Source: Emiliania huxleyi CCMP1516 (lineage: Eukaryota). Taken from it: a stretch of DNA of 64,000 bases. Position numbers and translations under genes: made by a program. Shown in pieces: positions 44,955 to 56,231 of this stretch (the first letter of the stretch is position 1; the number at the start of each line of letters is the position of its first letter). The DNA lies in assembly GCF_000372725.1 (NCBI RefSeq), contig NW_005201391.1:174736-238735 (forward strand), given 5' to 3'. The notes under the pieces were generated by a model. The model was given only the letters and a program-made list of their open reading frames with translations, did not search any database and was not told the origin of the DNA.

Positions 44955-47384
44955 ATGCCGCTCTGCCTGCTCTCTGCGTCGGTCGCTGGCACCGCGTCGG
45001 TCGCTGGCACCGCCTCGGCGGCCGAGGTCGCCGCCGTCCTCCAGCCGCGGCTCACCTTTGCTCCCGACGGGCTGCGCGCGGCCGAGGCGGCAGCGCAGGC
45101 GGAGGCCGCTGGCTCTGGCGTGGCGGCGTGGCAGGCCGTCGCCCGCACCGTGACGGCGCTGCAGCGGCTGGACTGCGGGCACGACGCGGGCGTCGACGGC
45201 GTCACCACCGCCAAGGAGGCCGAGCTGCTCAACGCGACCGAGGCGATACTCGACGCGGCGGCCGGCGGCGAGCCGCTCGCGATGTCGGCGCTGGGGCACA
45301 TGTACCTTCTGGGCGACCCGTGCTCGCCGAAGCGGAACCTGACGTGGGCGACGCACTGGCTCGAGGGCGCGGCCGCCGCCGGCCAGCCCTCCGCCCTCGC
45401 GATGCTCGGCTTTCTGAACGAGAGCCGCGCGCTGTCGCGCGTGTACAACTTCAGCTATGCCACGCCGGCCGCGCTGACGGCAAGGTACCCTCCGGCGGGC
45501 GGGGGGGCGTACGCGCAGGGGCGCGCCCTGTACGAGGCCGCCCTCACCTCGGGCGGCTCCGTCCTCGCCTCGCTCGCCCTCGGCTCCCAGTACTCGAACG
45601 GTTCGGAGACGCTCCCGAGACGCTCCCGAGACGCTCCCGAGACGCTCCCGAGACGCTTCCGAGACGCTTCCGAGACGCTTCCGAGACACTTCCGAGGTGG
45701 ACGCATCAGCTCCTGACAGCACTCACCGCCCCCGTGCCTCCTCCCCCCCAGGCTTCGCCGGCGTCGCCGCCTCGTGTCCCGCCGCCGCCGCTCACTACGA
45801 GGCTGCGGCAGCGGGCGCGATGGCGCAGCTGGACGAGAAGCGGCAGCGGACGGTCGAGCAGGGCTGGCTCGACTCGAGCAGCGAGGCGCGCACGCTCCTC
45901 CGCAAGCAGCCGGCCGCTGCTCGCGAGTCTGGCGTCGACCCCGCCTCTGTCGAGTACATGGACTACTGCGCGCACGTGGGGGACGTCGCCGGGCAAGTCG
46001 GGATGGCGCACCTCTACCACTCCGGCACGCACGGCGTCCCGCGCGACACGGCGGCGGCGGCGCACTGGTTCGCCGCCGCCGCGGCGAAGGGCGACCCGAT
46101 GGGCCACGCCAACCTCGGGCTGGTGCGGCTGCGGGCGGGGGACGGCGCGGGCGCGCTGCCGCCGCTGAGGCGCGCCGCCAAGCGGAGCGACCCGTCGGGG
46201 TGGGCCGGTCTCGGGTACGCGTACTACTACGGGCTGGGTGTGAGGCAGGACTACGCGCTGGCGGCCAAGGCCCTGTCCGCCGCCGCCCGCCTCGGCCACC
46301 TGGACGCCATCTTCAACCTGGGCGTGCTCGCGCTGCGCGGCGAAGGGATGGAGCAGTCGCTGCACAAGGCGGAGCGCTTCTGGCGCGTGGCGGCCGACTT
46401 TTCGCACCCGATGGCGCAGTACTACATCGGCAGGATGAAGGCGCGCGGGCTGGGCACGCGGCGCGACTGTGAGACCGCCCTCTTCTTCCTGCAGCACGCC
46501 GCCGCCGCCTGGCCCGCCGGCAACGGCTTGCTCGAGACCGGCCTTGCCGCCCACGAGGCGGACCGGCCGCAGCGCGCCCTCGTGCACTACCTGCTCGGAG
46601 CGCACGCGGGCCTCGAGCCGGCGCTGCACAACGCGGGCTTCCTGTACGCCGAGGCGATGCCGCGGCGGCAGCCGCAGCTAGCCGCCTCCTACCGCGGCGC
46701 GGCCTCCGAGTACTTTCGGCGCGCGGCCGTGCTCGGCTCGGTGGACGCGTCCATCCGGCTCGCCCTCGTGCTCTCCCAGGACCTGACGGCCGAGCACTCT
46801 GCGAGCTCGTGGAGGCTCGCCAACGAGCTCTACGCGGAGGCGGCGCGGCACGGCTCGGCCGACGCCACCTGGCACCTCGGCTACAACTACCTCAAGGGGC
46901 GTGGCCTTCCGAAGGACTGGGCACGCCCCTCCCCCCTCTGCTCCTCTCCGACATGGCTCGGAGCCTGCCCGGAGCTACCCGGAGCCTTCCTGTAGGGGCG
47001 CGCATGGGCGCTGATGCGCGACGGCGGGATGCACTCGCGCTTCGCCGAGCTGCGCGGTGCACGAGCGTGCCCGAGCCTTGCGACCCCTCTCCTCCCTCGC
47101 CCTCTCCTCCCTCGCCCTCTCCTCCCTGCTCTGTGGCGGCTCGATGCCAGCAGCCCTCACTCTCTCCCCGCCGACCCGCTGCAGGGCCCGAGAAGCTCCT
47201 CTTCTCGCTGCTGCGCGCCGTCTACGAGGCTCGCGTCTTCATCGTATTTGCGGCGCTCGGCTCCTTCGTCCTCGCCACAGGCGGCAAGCGCGCCCCCGGC
47301 TTTGGCGCCGGCGCCGCCGCGACCGCTGTCTGGCACGAAGACGACGACGCCGCTGCAGACGACTTTGACGAGTTTGACGACTGA
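44955..47384 (+). CDS. Sel1-repeat membrane protein (SEL1L/HRD3-like, ERAD)
   Basis: Signal-like start; many Sel1 repeats (ALGHMYLLG, AAHWFAAAAAKGD..NLG, LGYAYYYGLGVRQD, AIFNLG, RRDCETA); C-terminal TM VFIVFAALGSFVLA followed by an acidic tail; spliced. Confidence 0.85.
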
Positions 47385-47653: not shown

Positions 47654-47914
47654 TCATGCGGTGTCAAGTGCGGTGTCTGAGCCAGTGCTGCCGCTCGGTG
47701 TTGGACACGACGGCGCAGCAAAGGAGGCGGTGCGAGTCATGGACGCGACCATCGGCATGTGTGGCTCATGTTTGGGCAGCGGCATCGTCGTTGAAGTATC
47801 GAGAAACGCATCGAGTCGGCAGCGTGCCGAGCAAAAGGCGCTTCCGTGCGCCATGTACAGTGTCATTCCAGAGTAAAGTGTCTGCGAGCAGTTTTGGCAT
47901 GACCGAAGGGCCAT
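47654..47914 (-). CDS. Small FCS-like zinc finger (zf-FLZ/DUF581-like) protein
   Basis: LRSCQNCSQTLYSGMTLYMAHGSAFCSARCR fits CX2C-X17-FCSX2C. The ORF stays open upstream to 48004; first ATG at 47914. Confidence 0.65.
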   Translation of the reverse strand: MALRSCQNCSQTLYSGMTLYMAHGSAFCSARCRLDAFLDTSTTMPLPKHEPHMPMVASMTRTASFAAPSCPTPSGSTGSDTALDTA

Positions 47915-48080
47915 TTGCGTCTCAAACCTCGCAGCGGCGGTGGATGAAGGCACGGCGGCGTGGGCGTTCAATCGGCGAGCGATCGGCTTTTCGTTCACCG
48001 CCAATTCTTTTATTCGGTGTACCAGGTACCTGTTCTCGAGGTTCTCGAGGTGGATATCCTTTGGCCGCGTTGGGTAGCGA

Positions 48081-48202
48081 GGATTGGTGTGACGCGATCC
48101 ACGGAGGCGTGTTTTCTGACGGCCGACCGTCAGTGCACGGAGTTGCCCCTTCTCCGACTGCCCCGCCCGGCTAGTTCACGAGTTTCGCGGGAGTGACCCC
48201 AG
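48081..48202 (+). repeat. Dispersed ~120-bp repeat, second copy at ~53779-53895
   Basis: GGATTGGTGTGACGCGATCCACG..TTCTGACGGCCGACCGTCAGTGCACGGAGTTGCCCCTTCTCCGACTGCCCCG..CTAGTTCACGAGTTTCGC.GGAGTGACCCCA is near-identical at both loci. Confidence 0.85.
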
Positions 48203-50006: not shown

Positions 50007-53000
50007 TCAAGCGTCCGGGAAGACGCCCAAGAAGGTTGCGTCCCCCACGAGCGGGGGCATCGGGCTCTCCTCGACGATGGGGGCGGGCGCCTCCGTCGGC
50101 GGCGCGAGCGTGGGCGTGGCGGCGGCCGCGGCGTGATCGAAGGCAGTCCGCGCCTGCGCGAGCCGGCCCACGCCGGTCCAAAACTCGTGCAGCATGCCGC
50201 CCTCCATCTTCGCGTCGCTAGTCAGCGCGATCGCAGTCAGGACGAGCATGGCGGCGCGCCCCGCCTCGACGGGCGGCTCCAACGGGCCGAGGTGAGGCCC
50301 GAGCCGCCGCCGCCTCCGGCGCGCCGCCTCCGGGACCTTGCCCAGCGGCGCACGCACGTTGCGGAGCAGCGAGCGCGCCTCGAAGAGCGAGTACGTGCCG
50401 GCCTGCATCGCCCAGCAGAGCGCGCCGAGGCCGCTAAGGCCCGAGAGGGGGGGCGCGTCCGCCGCCGTCCAGCCCGTCAGCACGAGCCACAGCCACGTGA
50501 GCAGCGCGGTGAGGGCAACGTTGCCGTGCTTCCGCTCCGCCTCGACCCGCCACGCCGCCTGGTCGCTCGCGTCGTCGCTCTGGATTAGGGACCATGGCCA
50601 GGGTACGCGCCCCGCCCAGTAGCGCGTGTCGCTGCTCACGCCGCTGTCTGCCGCCGCCATGGCCTCGAGCGTCTCGCTCGTCTCGCGCCGCGCCGGCCGC
50701 CAAGTCGCTGCCTCGAGGGGACCGAGGACGTCCCCGTTCTGCAGCGCGTAGTCGGCGCGCACGAGCCTCCCGTTGACCACCGCCCGCGCCAGCGCCTCGC
50801 CGGGCGTAGGCCCGCCGCCGGCCGGCAGCGAGCGGAGGGCGGCCTCGACCGTCACGCCAGCCTCGAAGGAGAGGACTGTGCCGTCCTCCTGCGACGCGAG
50901 CACGCGCCGCGCGCGCAGCGCCGTGTGGACACGGCCGATGGTGTGCTCGGCACGCGACACCTCGCCCGCCCCCGCCCGCCGGCTCGCGCGCCGCACCAGC
51001 TGCTTTGGCCTGGCCGCCCCCGCCGCCCCGGCCGCCGGCGCGGCGACCCTCGGCGTTGCGGCACTCGGCGTCGTGGCGGGAGCGGAAGGCGGAGAGTAAG
51101 CTGGATCGGCGCGGCCGCCTCGGCCGCCGCGGGGCTGGCTCACCTCGACTCGGCACGCTCGGCCGCGCACCTCTCGGCCGGTCAGCTCGCGACACGCAGC
51201 CGCCGCGTCGCTCGCGTCAGCAAAGCTGACAAACCCATAGCCGCGGGAGCGTCCCGTCTCGCGGCTGGTGGCGACGCGGCACTCGGTGAGCCGCCCAAAC
51301 GGGGCAAACAGCTCCTGCAAGTCGCCCTCGGTCACGTCGAAGCTGAGCGAGGCGACGAAGAGCTTGCGGCGGTCCGACTCCGGCCGGCGCGGCGAGCGAG
51401 ACGCCGCGCCGGCCTCCACCTCTCGCGGCGCGGAGCCACCGCCGCGGCCACCGCCGCGGCCACCGCCGCCGCCCTCCGCCCTCTCGCTGCCCTCGCCTGC
51501 CTCCGCCCCGCCGTCGCCGCCAAAGAGGCGCCGCTCCTCGGCGACCCGCCGCTTGACGGGCGAGCGGCGCGGCTCGCCGAAGCCGGTCGTCTGGTCGAAG
51601 CCGAGCTCGCGCTGCCAGACCTGGTGCGCCGCGTCGCGGCGGCGGTCGTCCGCCTTGTACAGCCAATGCGCCGCCGAGCCGTACTCTGCCTGGTGGTGCA
51701 TCTCGGCGGTGCGCACCTGCACCTCCGCCTTGATGCCGCGCACCAGCGCGCACGAGTGGAGGGAGCGGTAGCCGTTTGGCTTCGGCGAGGCGATGAAGTC
51801 CTTGAGGAGCGCGCCCTTGGCCGTCGAGGCGACGGGCAGCGTCTTGTGCACCGCCTCGAGCACGCGGTAGCACAGCAGCGCCTGCCGCGCCTCCCAGTCC
51901 CGCGCGCTCATCCGCTCCGGCCGGTGCCCGTCCGGGGAGAGGGGCCGCGTCTCGGTCGGCATCACCACCAAGCGGAAGGCGAGCAGGTCGTCGAGCCCGT
52001 CGACGCTCTCCAGCCCCTTGCGCTCCATCTTGCGCGCCACAGAGACGAGGTCCTTGATGCGCGCGTGCACCCGGATCCACTTTGTCTGCCGCTGCAGCAG
52101 CGGGTCGGACGCCAGCGCCGCCTCGATCTGCCCCTCCGCCTCCTCGAGCGCCGGCCGCGCGCGCTCCGTCAGGTCCGCCAGCGCAGAGGAGAGGGCGGCA
52201 TACTCGGCAGGCCTCCCCACCGAGAAGGCTAGGATCTCGAGCTCCGTCTTGAAGTACCTGAGAGGCGGGCGTGGCAGGGTGTGCGCCACCGTACTGCTTA
52301 GCGCGGCATTTGGAGGGGCTCCAGGGAGAGGAGTCTCGCACCACATCCCGAGCCGCTGCGCGAGCGGGATGAACACCTCCTCCGTCTGCTGCGTGAAGAC
52401 GTCGCGCCGCTGCAGCAGCGCGCGCCACTCGGCGGCGTCGCCGCCGCACCGCTGGAAGGCGGCGCACGCGGCGCCGCTGTCGAGCGCACACGCGCTCAAG
52501 CAGCCGAGCGCGCAATCCGAGCGGCGAGGCGCGGCGGCCAGCTCGTTGACGCCTTACGGGAAGGCTCCGAGAAGGTTCAGAGAAGGTTCCAGGTGGCGAG
52601 GCGCGGCGGACAGCGGTTGACGCCGAGCTGCTGGCCGACCATCGCGCCGTACAGCTCGCGCATCGAGACGAGGCGCGACGCGAGCGCGATTGCAATCGAG
52701 CGAGGGTCGTCGCAGCCGGCGAGCATGATCTGGCACTGCCGCTCGAGCTGCTCCGCCCGACTCGCGCCGAGCTCGCCCCCTTCTTCTGCCACGCCGGCGC
52801 CAGCGCCGCCGTCCGCACCCTCGGCGGCGCGCTCGAGCCGCGCCGAGAGGCGCCATACCGTCGAGACGCCGCCGCCAATCTCGTCGATGGCGGCGGCCGC
52901 CTCCTCTCCGAGGATGGCAGTCAAGTCCTGCGCCGCCACGCCAACCTCCGCCTCGCGCAAGCCCGCCAGCATCGCAGCCTCGATGACCTCTCCGTCGGCC

Positions 53001-53404
53001 TTGATCGCCGCCAGGACGCGGCTGACCGCGAGGTGGTGACGTAGGGTGCCCAGCTTGCCGGCCGCGGTCCAGGCGCCATAGGCGAGCTCTGTCGTGATCA
53101 TGAGGTGTGCGAGCGCCGAAGGTGCGAGATGCTTTGCCATGCGGGCGAGCTCGTGCTTGTGGTAACGGAGCTCACTCAACTGCGCGTCATCCAAGCACCA
53201 CCCCATGGACGCCCTCAGTCTCGCCAGGGGTTCGCCGGCCTGCTCTTTGATCTCTCGCAGCAGCATGAGTGCCGTGGACGGGAGCGGCGACTCGGAGACG
53301 ATTCCAACCTTCTCGAGAGAGAGGGAGCCAATCGAGGTTGACGTCATCGAAGACAGCGGCGGTTCCACAGCTGCGCGGGCCAAGCAAATCACGTCGGAGC
53401 GCAT
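50007..53404 (-). CDS. RSH: RelA/SpoT homologue (RSH): degenerate HD + (p)ppGpp synthetase + RRM + TGS + hydrophobic C-terminal helices
   Basis: HD-like HHLAVSRVLAAIKADGEVIEAAMLAGL; EVFIPLAQRLGMW|YFKTELE; ARIKD..S...KM, DDLLAFRLVV, KDFIASPKPNGYRSLH and EVQVRTAEMHHQAEYGSAAHWLYK; RNP2 LFVASL and RNP1 RGYGFVSF; TGS-like AVVNGRLVRADYALQNGDVL. Predicted introns at 52553-52623 and 52258-52341. The start codon is uncertain. Confidence 0.92.
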
Positions 53405-54616
53405 GCTGTTCCCAGGGACTCGCGCGACACCTCTCGGCACCCCGAGGATTTTATTTCTTTGTGGGAGCGCGCCTTCTTTCGATCGTTTGAAGAAGGCCGG
53501 TACTACTATCGGGCCACTGGTAGGATTTTTGTTTCTTTTTCGGTCCCCGCGCGTAGGACAACAACAGACGCGCACATACATCATTGCACACCTGCCTTCC
53601 TTGGCGGGTGAGGGTCGTAAGAATCCAGACAGAGAGAGATTTTTAATTAGCAATACCATTATGTGATGTTAGAGAGGTGGGTTAAGAGGGAGATGTGCGC
53701 GAGCTGCGGGACCGCCGGGACGGCGGGCGGGTGATTCGCCACTTTTGGCCACTTTTGGCCACTTTTGGCGACTTTTGAGGATTGGTGTGACGCGATCCAC
53801 GCAGGCGTGGCTTCTGACGGCCGACCGTCAGTGCACGGAGTTGCCCCTTCTCCGACTGCCCCGGCTAGTTCACGAGTTTCGCAGGAGTGACCCCATGCGT
53901 CAAACCCGAGACCTAGCGCGGGTGGGTTGGAGGGGGCTCGCTGCAAGGAAGGGCGGTGTAAGAGGCCGATCCCCGCAGTCCGCCCCGTTCCTCCCCATCG
54001 GGCCGCGCGTGAGCGGCCTCGCCTCGCAGATTCGTTTTTCGCGCCTGGGTCAGGCGCGCGGGGCATCCCCCGGGTCGCTCGACCAGCGATCCGAAGAGTG
54101 GCCGCTATGCGAGGGACAGAGCGGGGCCCCCGGGGTACGCCTCGTCCGGCCCCCTCCGAGGGGGGAAGGGAATTGCGGGGTCCCCACGGGCGCCTCAGTT
54201 CGGCCCTCCCGAGGGGGGGAGGGGAGCAAGGGGGTGGGGGGGTCGGGGCGGGGGGGAGGGGTCTCGGATTTCGTTCTCGACCGACCCATTGGTGCAAGAG
54301 GACTACATTTCACCTCCTCCCGAAGCGCTGCGACGCACGGTCACGCAGCCTCATGGCCGTGCACTCAACCGGTCGTTCGAAGCACAGACAGCGTCAGCCC
54401 ATGGCGCCCTGAGATGCACACACACGCGCGCGCGCACACACTCACACACGCACGCACACACACACACACACAGATTGAGAAAAGAATTTAATTAAAACAA
54501 CTCTCTCTCACAGCAGTCAGGCGACACAGGTGCGGACTGTAGAAAAGAATTTTTGCGCCGGTCTAGTCGCGACCCGGGGGGGGGGAGCGGGAGACTAACC
54601 TGAGGCATATATATAT

Positions 54617-55033
54617 ATGTCGCGCGCCGCCAGCGCCGCGACCTCGATCTCCTTGCGCTGCCCGATCTGCTGGGACACATTCTGCTCGCCGGTGCTGACG
54701 CCCTGCGGGCACCGCTTTTGCGAGGCATGCGTCAAGACCGCACTCACAGTCAAGAAGGAATGCCCGTCGTGTCGCCAGCCGGTCAAGTCGCACCGCGCGC
54801 TTCGAGTGGACACGGCATTCTTTGCAGCGACCGAGTCGAGCGGTGTGCGGTCGGCGGTGGCCGCCCCACTTCTTGACGAGTGCCTCGCCTCCTGCGATGC
54901 CGAGTGGAATTGCCGCGGCTGCACTTTGGCTAATCCCGCGGCTGCCGAGCGCTGCGCGACGTGTCACGCTCGCCGGCCTGCTCGCGCGACGTACTCTCTG
55001 TTGCCGGCGCGCAACGACTCTTGCGAGCCGGGC

Positions 55034-55074
<41 letters not shown>

Positions 55075-56231
55075 GCTGACACGGCCGGGCGCGCCGCTCG
55101 CCGCTGCCGACGCCGTCGAGGGGGCTGCGGTGGCGGTCTACTTCTCGGACGTGTCGCGCTGGTGCCGCGGCTCGAGCGTGTCCAAGACTGCGACGGGGAG
55201 GAGCTGCTCTTGTCGACCCTCTCCCCTCCCTCCCTTGTAGGTACCGCGGCGAGGTGGCTTCCGTCAACAACGACGGCACCTTTGGCGTGGGGCGTACGAG
55301 CTGTGAAGAGACGCTGTGTTCACACCTGCAGCTGTGAGCAGGCACCTTTGGCGTGGCGTACGAGGACGGCGACGAGGAGGAGGCGGTGCCGCTGGCGGAG
55401 CTCTTTCATCCAGCGGCTGAGGCTGGGAGGCCCGCCCACTCCGACGAGCAGAGGCTGACGGCGGCCCGAGAGAGGTGTGTGTCCGAGACCACGTCGCACA
55501 TTATACTATGTGGTCGCGCAGTTGGACCAACCGATGCGCCGGGCTTCGAGAGCGAGGCGGCAGACGCCGACAGTGGGGTTTCGGCTCGCGGGACGTCGTC
55601 AAGGAGACGACTTGTCGGCTGGCGGACGGGTTATCGAGGCCCCTCGTGGACGGGTTATCGAGGCGTCTACAAGCATGGGAATAAGTACCGCGCGCGCCTG
55701 GACGTCCCGGGCGGGGAGGGGGAAGGGGGAGGGAAGTCCCGCTACGTCGGCAGCTTCGACACGGTCGAGGAGGCGGCAGCGGCGCGGGCTGCGGCCGCTG
55801 AGGAGCAGCGGCGGAGCGATGAAGCTGCGCGCGCGCCCAGGCTGGCTCGGCAGGCGGAGGCGGCACGCCAGCAGGCCATAAGCGAGGGGCTGCAGCTTGA
55901 GCCGTCGAGCTCGAACACGAGCACAGGCTTCCGCGGCGTGGTTGTGTATGACGCGGGCAAGCGCTCACTCAGAACGTGCTACCGCGCTTACAATGCCATG
56001 CATTGGCAACATCGCGGGGCGGACGACCATGCTGGCCAGAATGCACAATGGATCTCGGGCACGTTTGAGACGGTGGAAGAAGCCGCGCTCGCTTACGCGC
56101 GTAGCCGCGCGATGGCCAAGATCGCGAAGCAGGGGCAGGATCGGAGGTTCAAAAGCTGTAAATCATATTGGAGGGGTGGGGGTGGGAGGGGCGGGGGTGG
56201 GAGGGGCGCTAAAATAAATGGACGTGCGTAA
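54617..56231 (+). CDS. RING finger + RanBP2-type zinc finger + polyQ + Tudor-like + two AP2 domains
   Basis: CPICWDTF..PVLTPCGHRFCEAC..CPSCR; WNCRGCTLANPAAAERCATC; polyQ run; SRW|YRGEVASVNND|GTFGVAYEDGDEE after removing introns 55162-55240 and 55276-55341; TGYRGVYKHGNKYRARL..YVGSFDTVEEAA and TGFRGV..GTFETVEEAALAYAR. Confidence 0.85.

What the first reader, a model, noticed from the sequence alone, without database searches (positions are those of the whole stretch)
50007..53404. RelA/SpoT homologue with an RRM between synthetase and TGS, dead hydrolase and possible membrane anchor: candidate RNA-sensing ppGpp synthetase
Seen: one uninterrupted frame carries a synthetase with intact motifs (~51650-52080: RIK..S...KM, DLLAFR, KDFI..PKPNGYRSLH, EVQVRT, AAHWLYK). 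It continues into a complete RRM (~51135-51368: KLFVASLSFDVTEGDLQELFAPFG..RETGRSRGYGFVSF..GREVRGRACRVEVS), a TGS-like domain (~50720-50910) and two to three hydrophobic helices (VALTALLTWLWLVLTGW, LGALCWAMQAG, AAMLVLTAIAL). No splicing is needed to join synthetase and RRM. The HD-domain position that normally reads LLHDxxED reads MLAGLREA. Known: bacterial long RSHs are HD-SYNTH-TGS-ZFD-ACT, and plant RSHs include TGS and EF-hand (CRSH) forms. I do not know a form with a canonical eukaryotic RNP1/RNP2 RRM in this position. Inference: a synthesis-only, possibly membrane-tethered alarmone synthase regulated by direct RNA binding. No clear signal peptide is visible, so plastid targeting is unproven.
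Basis: partly seen in the sequence, partly recalled or inferred. Interest (0 to 1): 0.88.

Follow-up and report, generated by a model that had tools for sequence, protein, structure and literature searches.

The report
Algal stress enzyme with antenna tail
This algal gene is expressed and encodes a predicted maker of the chloroplast stress signal ppGpp; its RNA-binding domain is real but already listed in a paper and missing from the relatives found, whereas its conserved tail is likely a worn-down light-harvesting antenna domain that would tie the enzyme to the photosynthetic membrane.

Summary
The minus-strand gene 53404-50007 has two introns shown by RNA contigs and gives 1080 aa: degenerate HD, intact synthetase, canonical RRM, TGS-like domain, hydrophobic tail. 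No splice removes the RRM. Avilan et al. 2019, Table S2, already lists this protein (Emiliania huxleyi XP_005759301.1, RSH4, 'RRM, MOAD'). And 0 of 4 relatives spanning the synthetase-TGS interval carry an RRM, so it looks like a recent insertion. What is conserved is the tail (51-69% identical in six relatives): a degenerate three-helix LHC/FCP domain. All 6 PDB sequence hits, all 30 ESM Atlas hits and the top 12 structure-only matches are antenna-type, but each signal is below its usual threshold. One LHC ion pair is kept; the other is lost on both sides. A full-length orthologue has a signal-peptide-like start; this copy has none. Best reading: a synthesis-only RSH4, likely anchored in the thylakoid by an LHC-derived tail. 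I found no description of this fusion in the searches run. Pigment binding, location and regulation are untested. A frameshift variant removing the tail appears in 2 of 8 runs.

The parts
52624..53404 (-). Exon 1 (ATG at 53404): about 60-aa Ser/Thr-rich N-terminal extension without a clear signal peptide, then degenerate HD domain
52646..53047 (-). Degenerate (p)ppGpp hydrolase domain: LLHDxxED reads MLAGLREA (A147 G148 E151 A152); KLADRLHN reads ALASRLVS (S243)
   Evidence: HD_4 33.5 bits; orthologue aligned to solved Rel 6s2t; positions
52553..52623 (-). Intron 1, 71 nt, GC..AG
   Evidence: joint in X1, X3, X5, X11; boundary chosen among 10 equivalent cuts
52342..52552 (-). Exon 2: Cys-rich insertion shared with orthologue P0009, and first helices before the synthetase
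52258..52341 (-). Intron 2, 84 nt, GT..AG, in frame without a stop
   Evidence: joint in X1, X5, X11, X9
50007..52257 (-). Exon 3: synthetase, RRM, TGS-like domain, LHC-like tail, stop
51648..52061 (-). (p)ppGpp synthetase domain: R397 K399 S403 K407, D421 R426, K490 N492 Y494 H498, E509 Q511 R513 present; A396 in place of the conserved glycine
   Evidence: Gly substitution described as near-ubiquitous in red RSH4
51135..51368 (-). Canonical RRM (RNP2 LFVASL, RNP1 RGYGFVSF; F631, Y671, F673) between two Gly/Arg/Ala-rich linkers with 2 RGG each; absent from the relatives found
51074..51074 (.). Site of a 1-nt deletion in 2 of 8 runs laid (X1, X5); predicted 798-aa product ending 73 aa later, without TGS-like domain and tail
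50712..50942 (-). TGS/MoaD-like domain, below Pfam cut-off, conserved in relatives
   Evidence: 'MOAD' in Table S2
50562..50711 (-). Conserved spacer before the LHC-like domain (50% identical to P0009)
50178..50561 (-). Degenerate three-helix LHC/FCP-like domain: helix 1 E905-x-x-H908-G-N910, helix 2 Q949..E957-x-R959, helix 3 P993-x-x-A996-G-R998

Best explanation
This is an expressed algal RSH4 gene whose product is predicted to make ppGpp but not to break it down, and is likely held in the thylakoid membrane by a conserved tail derived from a three-helix light-harvesting protein, while its RRM is likely a recent insertion in one lineage. Shown here: exon structure, domain order, loss of the hydrolase motif, intact synthetase motifs, conservation of TGS-like domain plus tail in relatives, absence of the RRM from them. 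Inferred: LHC ancestry of the tail (several weak but agreeing signals); plastid import (signal-peptide-like start in the orthologue, none clear here); a topology with the catalytic part in the stroma (LHC N-termini are stromal, recalled); and that the tail mainly anchors the enzyme near the photosystems, perhaps with one chlorophyll site left (E905, H908, E905-R998 pair), taking the place of the EF-hand input of plant RSH4/CRSH. The RRM, if it works, would add binding to RNA in this lineage only.
For: RSH4 placement and 'RRM, MOAD' label. Diatom RSH4a/b with the same degenerate HD and Gly substitution act as synthetases only (passages). Tail: 6 of 6 PDB hits at E<=10 are FCP/acpPCI-type proteins; with a 7-sequence profile 20 of 29 hits are antenna proteins, and all 20 hits in profile positions 252-311 are; ESM Atlas 30 of 30 hits PF00504, score 0.91, 196-198 shared features; an AlphaFold model built without any LHC sequence (pLDDT 64) ranks photosystem-antenna entries at places 1-12 of 48,161 chains over residues 18-144, Z 5.0-5.8. 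Against the consensus E-x-x-H/N-x-R and the pairs E65-R185, E180-R70 (PMC6320596 passage), 9 of 9 sequences keep E and H/N and have R->N in helix 1; 7 of 9 show helix 3 with R kept and E->P (the other two are truncated or frameshifted). Tail 55% identical to P0009, same as the synthetase region (55%). Tail joined to a synthetase in P0009, P0149 and the paralogue. P0009 starts with a hydrophobic stretch of 3.22. RRM in 0 of 4 spanning relatives and 0 of 120 listed synthetase hits.
Against: No LHC signal passes a threshold: Pfam PF00504 E 0.063 for the tail, seen in 7 of 13 tail-bearing relatives, always under the cut-off; PDB E 0.067-1; Foldseek has no match at E<=0.001, TM 0.27-0.42, rmsd 8.5-12.7 A; Z under 8 can be a common helix arrangement. 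The window protein has no clear signal peptide (1.44) and no upstream in-frame ATG in L001. A frameshift that removes TGS and tail is in 2 of 8 runs. Within-species variants give no selection signal from TGS to the end (4 synonymous, 6 replacement, p=0.28), while the RRM has 3 of 3 synonymous (p=0.017, tiny sample). The relatives carry no species names. No activity, location or pigment data.
Confidence: 0.7

Rival explanations
1. Pigment-gated sensor: the LHC-like tail binds chlorophyll or docks on a photosystem, and light or antenna state switches the synthetase directly.
For: Chlorophyll-ligand positions E905/H908 and the partner R998 are kept in all relatives that cover them; H908 varies only to N, the other allowed ligand. 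Algae raise ppGpp in the dark without EF-hand enzymes, by a mechanism still unknown (review passage).
Against: The second motif has lost both ligands; those residues may be kept for folding only. About 370 residues of linker, RRM and TGS lie between synthetase and tail (aa 535-897). No pigment data.
Confidence: 0.25
2. One reading: the RRM binds RNA and regulates the synthetase, replacing the ribosome-sensing ACT/RRM domain of bacterial RSH.
For: RNP1/RNP2 aromatic residues intact with RGG flanks; never spliced out in 5 RNA-type runs; 3 of 3 variants synonymous; the frameshift variant keeps the RRM and drops the tail.
Against: Absent from 4 of 4 spanning relatives including the sister paralogue; sits in a linker whose length varies (101, 191, 241 aa). 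It cannot be the family's regulator.
Confidence: 0.2
3. Decaying or relocated duplicate: this copy lost its signal peptide, picked up an RRM, and is losing its tail; the paralogue does the thylakoid job.
For: No clear signal peptide; frameshift in X1 and X5 from two studies; no within-species selection signal on the C-terminal third; a paralogue with the tail exists.
Against: Whole gene shows an excess of synonymous variants (13 of 25 against 26.6% expected, p=0.006); frame intact in 6 of 8 runs and L001; the tail keeps the family's invariant residues. The paralogue's model has no signal peptide listed either.
Confidence: 0.12
4. The tail is a generic membrane anchor and the LHC likeness is chance.
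For: All scores are sub-threshold.
Against: Four kinds of search name the same family and no other; the motifs occur in LHC order and spacing in all three helices, with a paired loss of one ion pair.
Confidence: 0.08

Closest known systems
Emiliania huxleyi XP_005759301.1 (RSH4; 'RRM, MOAD' in Avilan et al. 2019 Table S2, PMC6881373)
   Same: Same gene: identical N-terminus and same domains.
   Different: The published model (996 characters) skips VQVRTAEMHHQ of the synthetase, the RNP2 strand and the RRM-TGS linker, and has another C-terminus; RNA contigs show none of these splices. The LHC-like tail is in the model but not annotated.
Red-lineage RSH4 (PtRSH4a/b of Phaeodactylum; paralogue XP_005763353.1)
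   Same: Degenerate HD, synthetase with Gly substitution, partial TGS/MoaD, no EF-hand. The paralogue also ends in the LHC-like tail.
   Different: No membrane or LHC domain is described for PtRSH4a/b in the passages read; the paralogue lacks the RRM.
Plant CRSH/RSH4
   Same: Synthesis-only RSH4 with an added C-terminal domain.
   Different: EF-hand calcium sensor there; TGS-like domain plus LHC-like tail here.
Ectocarpus siliculosus RSH1 CBN78357.1 with 'Chlbp' (PF00504)
   Same: An RSH fused to a chlorophyll a-b binding domain, named in the paper's text and Table S2.
   Different: RSH1 with intact HD motif, a single record; only one LHC motif was visible in the alignment excerpt. A different clade, so likely a separate fusion.
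[quoted passage not shown]
   Same: Catalytic domain fused to a less-conserved chlorophyll-binding motif (passages).
   Different: Those passages name only these two fusion proteins; here a whole three-helix domain is attached to a signalling enzyme.
Bacterial long RSH (RelA/Rel) with ACT/RRM
   Same: HD-SYNTH-TGS order; closest solved synthetase 6s2t, E 2.9e-22; the ACT domain is itself called RRM.
   Different: No ZFD or ACT here; the RRM is the RNP1/RNP2 type and lies before TGS.

Membership tests
Long RSH, RSH4 clade | HD plus synthetase domains in one protein | tested here: met
   HD_4 33.5 and RelA_SpoT 80 bits, joined by RNA-supported splices
Long RSH, RSH4 clade | Degraded hydrolase motif | tested here: met
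   MLAGLREA and ALASRLVS; orthologue LLAGVCEY aligned to LLHDTLED of 6s2t
Long RSH, RSH4 clade | Conserved synthetase motifs | tested here: met
Long RSH, RSH4 clade | Phylogenetic placement in RSH4 | not tested
   No tree built here; taken from the paper's Table S2 and tree file
Long RSH, RSH4 clade | ppGpp synthesis without hydrolysis | not testable with these tools
   shown for PtRSH4a/b only
CRSH (plant RSH4) | C-terminal EF-hands | tested here: not met
   no EF-hand family in Pfam scans at E<=1
Three-helix LHC/FCP | PF00504 above curated cut-off | tested here: not met
   14.2 bits against 22.3; relatives 10-14 bits
Three-helix LHC/FCP | E-x-x-H/N-x-R in helix 1 | tested here: not met
   E and H/N kept, R replaced by N in 9 of 9
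Three-helix LHC/FCP | E-x-x-H/N-x-R in helix 3 | tested here: not met
   R kept, E->P, H/N->A/L/S in 7 of 7 that cover it
Three-helix LHC/FCP | Three helices in LHC arrangement | tested here: inconclusive
   model helices 23-53, 70-95, 123-143, pLDDT 64; best Z 5.8, rmsd 4.4 A, 107 aligned; no Foldseek match at E<=0.001. Filed as LHC-derived, not as a family member.
Three-helix LHC/FCP | Pigment binding and thylakoid location | not testable with these tools
   none
Canonical RRM (PF00076) | RNP2 and RNP1 with aromatic residues; score above cut-off | tested here: met
   74 bits; F631, Y671, F673
Canonical RRM (PF00076) | RNA binding | not testable with these tools
   none
TGS (PF02824) | Score above cut-off | tested here: inconclusive
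   19 bits against 22.2; weak profile match to the mycobacterial RelA region after the synthetase; labelled MOAD in the paper

The most novel reading that the evidence does not exclude
A conserved algal subfamily of ppGpp synthetases has fused a whole light-harvesting protein to the enzyme and uses it as a pigment-bearing sensor in the thylakoid, so that light or photosystem state controls the plastid stringent response directly; in Emiliania a later RRM adds a second, RNA-based input.
Probability: 0.25. Interest if true: 0.87.

Novelty: new variant of a known kind. Interest (0 to 1): 0.6.

Why it matters
ppGpp damps photosynthesis in plants and algae, and a review states that algae without EF-hand enzymes must activate their RSH by other, unknown means. 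A synthetase with a conserved LHC-derived tail gives a concrete candidate for the link between thylakoid state and ppGpp, testable by location, pigment and point-mutant assays. It would also be a new kind of enzyme-LHC fusion. The RNA evidence also corrects a public gene model that removes catalytic residues.

Tried and rejected
1. Assembly or annotation chimera of an RSH and an RRM gene: rejected. DNA-like runs and RNA contigs cover the junction by overlapping pieces, and L001 holds the whole frame in one contig. 2. RRM removed by splicing: no such joint; the long 'skips' with 20-22 nt sides join GC-rich repeats and several occur in DNA-like runs too. 3. Upstream start giving a signal peptide: the window frame is open to 53668, but three DNA-like runs and L001 carry an extra base at 53429 that closes it, and RNA contigs end at 53431 or below. 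5. The first protein search, with the long low-complexity query, gave 6 hits and no orthologue. 6. The metagenome DNA scan gave 80 loci: one same-species contig, the others at 29-52% identity and not examined beyond the table. 7. Single-sequence fold of the tail, pLDDT 48.8, not used. 8. No whole genome is held, so the paralogue is known only from the paper's alignment. 9. Earlier scan notes: nothing found by sequence or words. 10. Weak hits to ribosomal S4 in the TGS-like region (3 of 29, E 0.27) were not pursued. 11. No complex prediction was run; no binding partner is claimed.
Full report
Gene structure. The locus is a GC-rich eukaryotic gene on the minus strand. The HD part lies upstream in another frame. 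Seventeen of 20 listed runs, from 6 studies, hold the stretch; I laid 8 of them. Two joints recur: 71 nt skipped at about 52545-52615 (X1, X3, X5, X11) and 84 nt at about 52256-52339 (X1, X5, X11, X9); the three DNA-like runs show neither. They read as a GC..AG and a GT..AG intron and give an open 1080-aa protein. Only X11 is on record as RNA; the other four are guessed, but their splices show transcription. All are contigs, so they show neither level nor ends. No splice touches the synthetase-RRM-TGS-tail stretch. Metagenome contig L001 carries the whole gene in frame, with 8 extra linker residues and 3 replacements.

Domains. Pfam gives HD_4, RelA_SpoT and RRM_1 above cut-off and TGS below. 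The hydrolase metal motif is gone here and in the orthologue. The synthetase keeps all its motifs against solved Rel and RelA, with Ala for the conserved Gly, a change described as near-ubiquitous in red RSH4 and compatible with activity in diatom enzymes. The RRM is the canonical RNP type.

The RRM is catalogued and not conserved. Table S2 of Avilan et al. 2019 lists E. huxleyi XP_005759301.1 as RSH4 with 'RRM, MOAD', and the supplement's sequence begins as ours does. The window is therefore E. huxleyi or a very close relative. The main text never mentions the RRM. The published model skips part of the synthetase, RNP2 and the linker, which the RNA contigs contradict. A synthetase-region search gave 139 hits, 120 listed, none with PF00076. 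The top hit P0009 (961 aa, unnamed) aligns over almost the whole protein at 42% identity, shares a Cys-rich insertion and reads straight across both intron sites, but has no RRM. P0143/P0149, P0138 and the sister paralogue XP_005763353.1 also go from synthetase end to TGS-like domain without one; for P0138 this rests on its first residues aligning to the helix after the synthetase. That is 0 of 4. The closest genera were not sampled, so the age of the insertion is open.

The tail is the conserved part. A search with the P0009 tail among shorter proteins gave 6 hits at E 1e-60 to 5e-23, none with a precomputed Pfam domain. The tails of six relatives are 51-69% identical to ours (P0141, a frameshifted copy of the P0009 type, was left out of that alignment). 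P0139 and P0143 are 92% alike over their overlap, so these are about five lineages. The paralogue has the same three motifs, so the tail predates that duplication. Four searches name one family. Pfam PF00504 appears at E 0.063 and in 7 of 13 relatives, always under cut-off. All 6 PDB sequence hits are FCP-type antenna proteins, and so are 20 of 29 profile hits, the rest being 5 RSH, 3 S4 and 1 kinase in other regions. ESM Atlas returns PF00504 for 30 of 30 hits. A model folded from 7 family sequences has three long helices (pLDDT 64); a structure-only search puts photosystem-antenna entries in ranks 1-12, Z 5.0-5.8, over all three helices, while unrelated rows mostly align 58-83 residues (chain identity is inferred from entry titles and sizes except where names them). 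Foldseek finds nothing at E<=0.001, though all 39 rows shown are photosystem or antenna entries. These signals are weak and partly dependent on each other; I put LHC descent at about 0.9.

Residue pattern. The LHC motif is E-x-x-H/N-x-R, with ion pairs E65-R185 and E180-R70. Helix 1 keeps E and H/N and has R->N in 9 of 9 sequences; helix 3 keeps R and has E->P in the 7 that cover it. So one cross-helix pair is kept and the other is lost on both sides. This fits a domain still selected to fold in a membrane, with at most part of its pigment sites. The mapping to LHCII numbers is by motif position, not by a structural overlay.

Targeting. P0009 begins with a strongly hydrophobic stretch (3.22 over 11 residues); the window protein reaches 1.44, and Table S2 lists no signal peptide for it. 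No predictor could be run. Plastid location is likely for the family and unproven for this copy.

Variation. Of 25 single-base differences from runs and L001, 13 are synonymous against 26.6% expected (p=0.006); three multi-base clusters were left out. The RRM has 3 of 3 synonymous; TGS to the end has 4 and 6 (p=0.28). X1 and X5, from two studies and sharing other variants, lack one base at 51074; this would end the protein at 798 aa without TGS or tail. The other 6 runs and L001 are intact. Contigs cannot tell whether the change is homozygous.

Mechanism. Most likely the enzyme is imported into the plastid, the LHC-derived tail inserts in the thylakoid, and the synthetase faces the stroma (LHC topology recalled) and makes ppGpp, which an RSH1 removes (RSH1 role). 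The tail anchors and may sense; the RRM is an optional extra. All of this beyond the sequence is inference.

Literature. Ten search calls, nine answered. None showed a description of an RSH4 with a three-helix LHC tail. [quoted passage not shown] What I saw: PMC6881373, passages, part 1 of 4 of Table S2, searches in supplements, parts 88-89 of the alignment file; PMC5633626, PMC10107265, PMC3020630, PMC3153485, PMC6320596, passages only; all others, search listings. Ito et al. 2017 was not read, bioRxiv supplements were not seen, and most subscription papers are outside the library, so an earlier mention cannot be excluded.

Verdict. Real feature; the RRM angle is known and lineage-limited; the LHC-derived tail makes this a new variant of RSH4 with a testable link to the thylakoid. 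Interest 0.6.

Noticed in passing
window 47654-48175 (-): ORF with an FCS-like zinc finger (zf-FLZ PF04570, 30.7 bits, above cut-off). I recall this family as plant SnRK1-binding proteins, so a haptophyte copy may be worth a look.
   Followed up: no
window 45478-46995 (+): Sel1-repeat protein (63.6 bits).
   Followed up: no
window 54599-55240 (+): RING finger followed by a weak RanBP-type zinc ribbon and a poly-Q run; divergent from the RSH gene.
   Followed up: no
window 55338-56231 (+): ORF with two repeats that look AP2-like by eye; Pfam gave no AP2 hit.
   Followed up: no
window 53776-53900: Short element upstream of the gene with raised contig depth in most runs, up to 249,000 in DNA-like runs, next to a 10-nt tandem repeat; likely a high-copy repeat.
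   Followed up: no
window 53410-53445: Three DNA-like runs and L001 differ from the window by one inserted base and two or three substitutions just upstream of the ATG.
   Followed up: partly
window 52890-52929: One low-depth contig of X9 skips 40 nt and has 18 more gaps; seen once, probably an artefact or minor splice form.
   Followed up: no
PMC6881373 supplement, XP_005763353.1: The sister paralogue's model appears to lack the helices before the synthetase, and it carries the same unannotated LHC-like tail.
   Followed up: partly
P0113: 528-aa protein with two N-terminal hydrophobic stretches and a C-terminal RelA_SpoT domain, no HD hit: another possibly membrane-bound synthetase.
   Followed up: no
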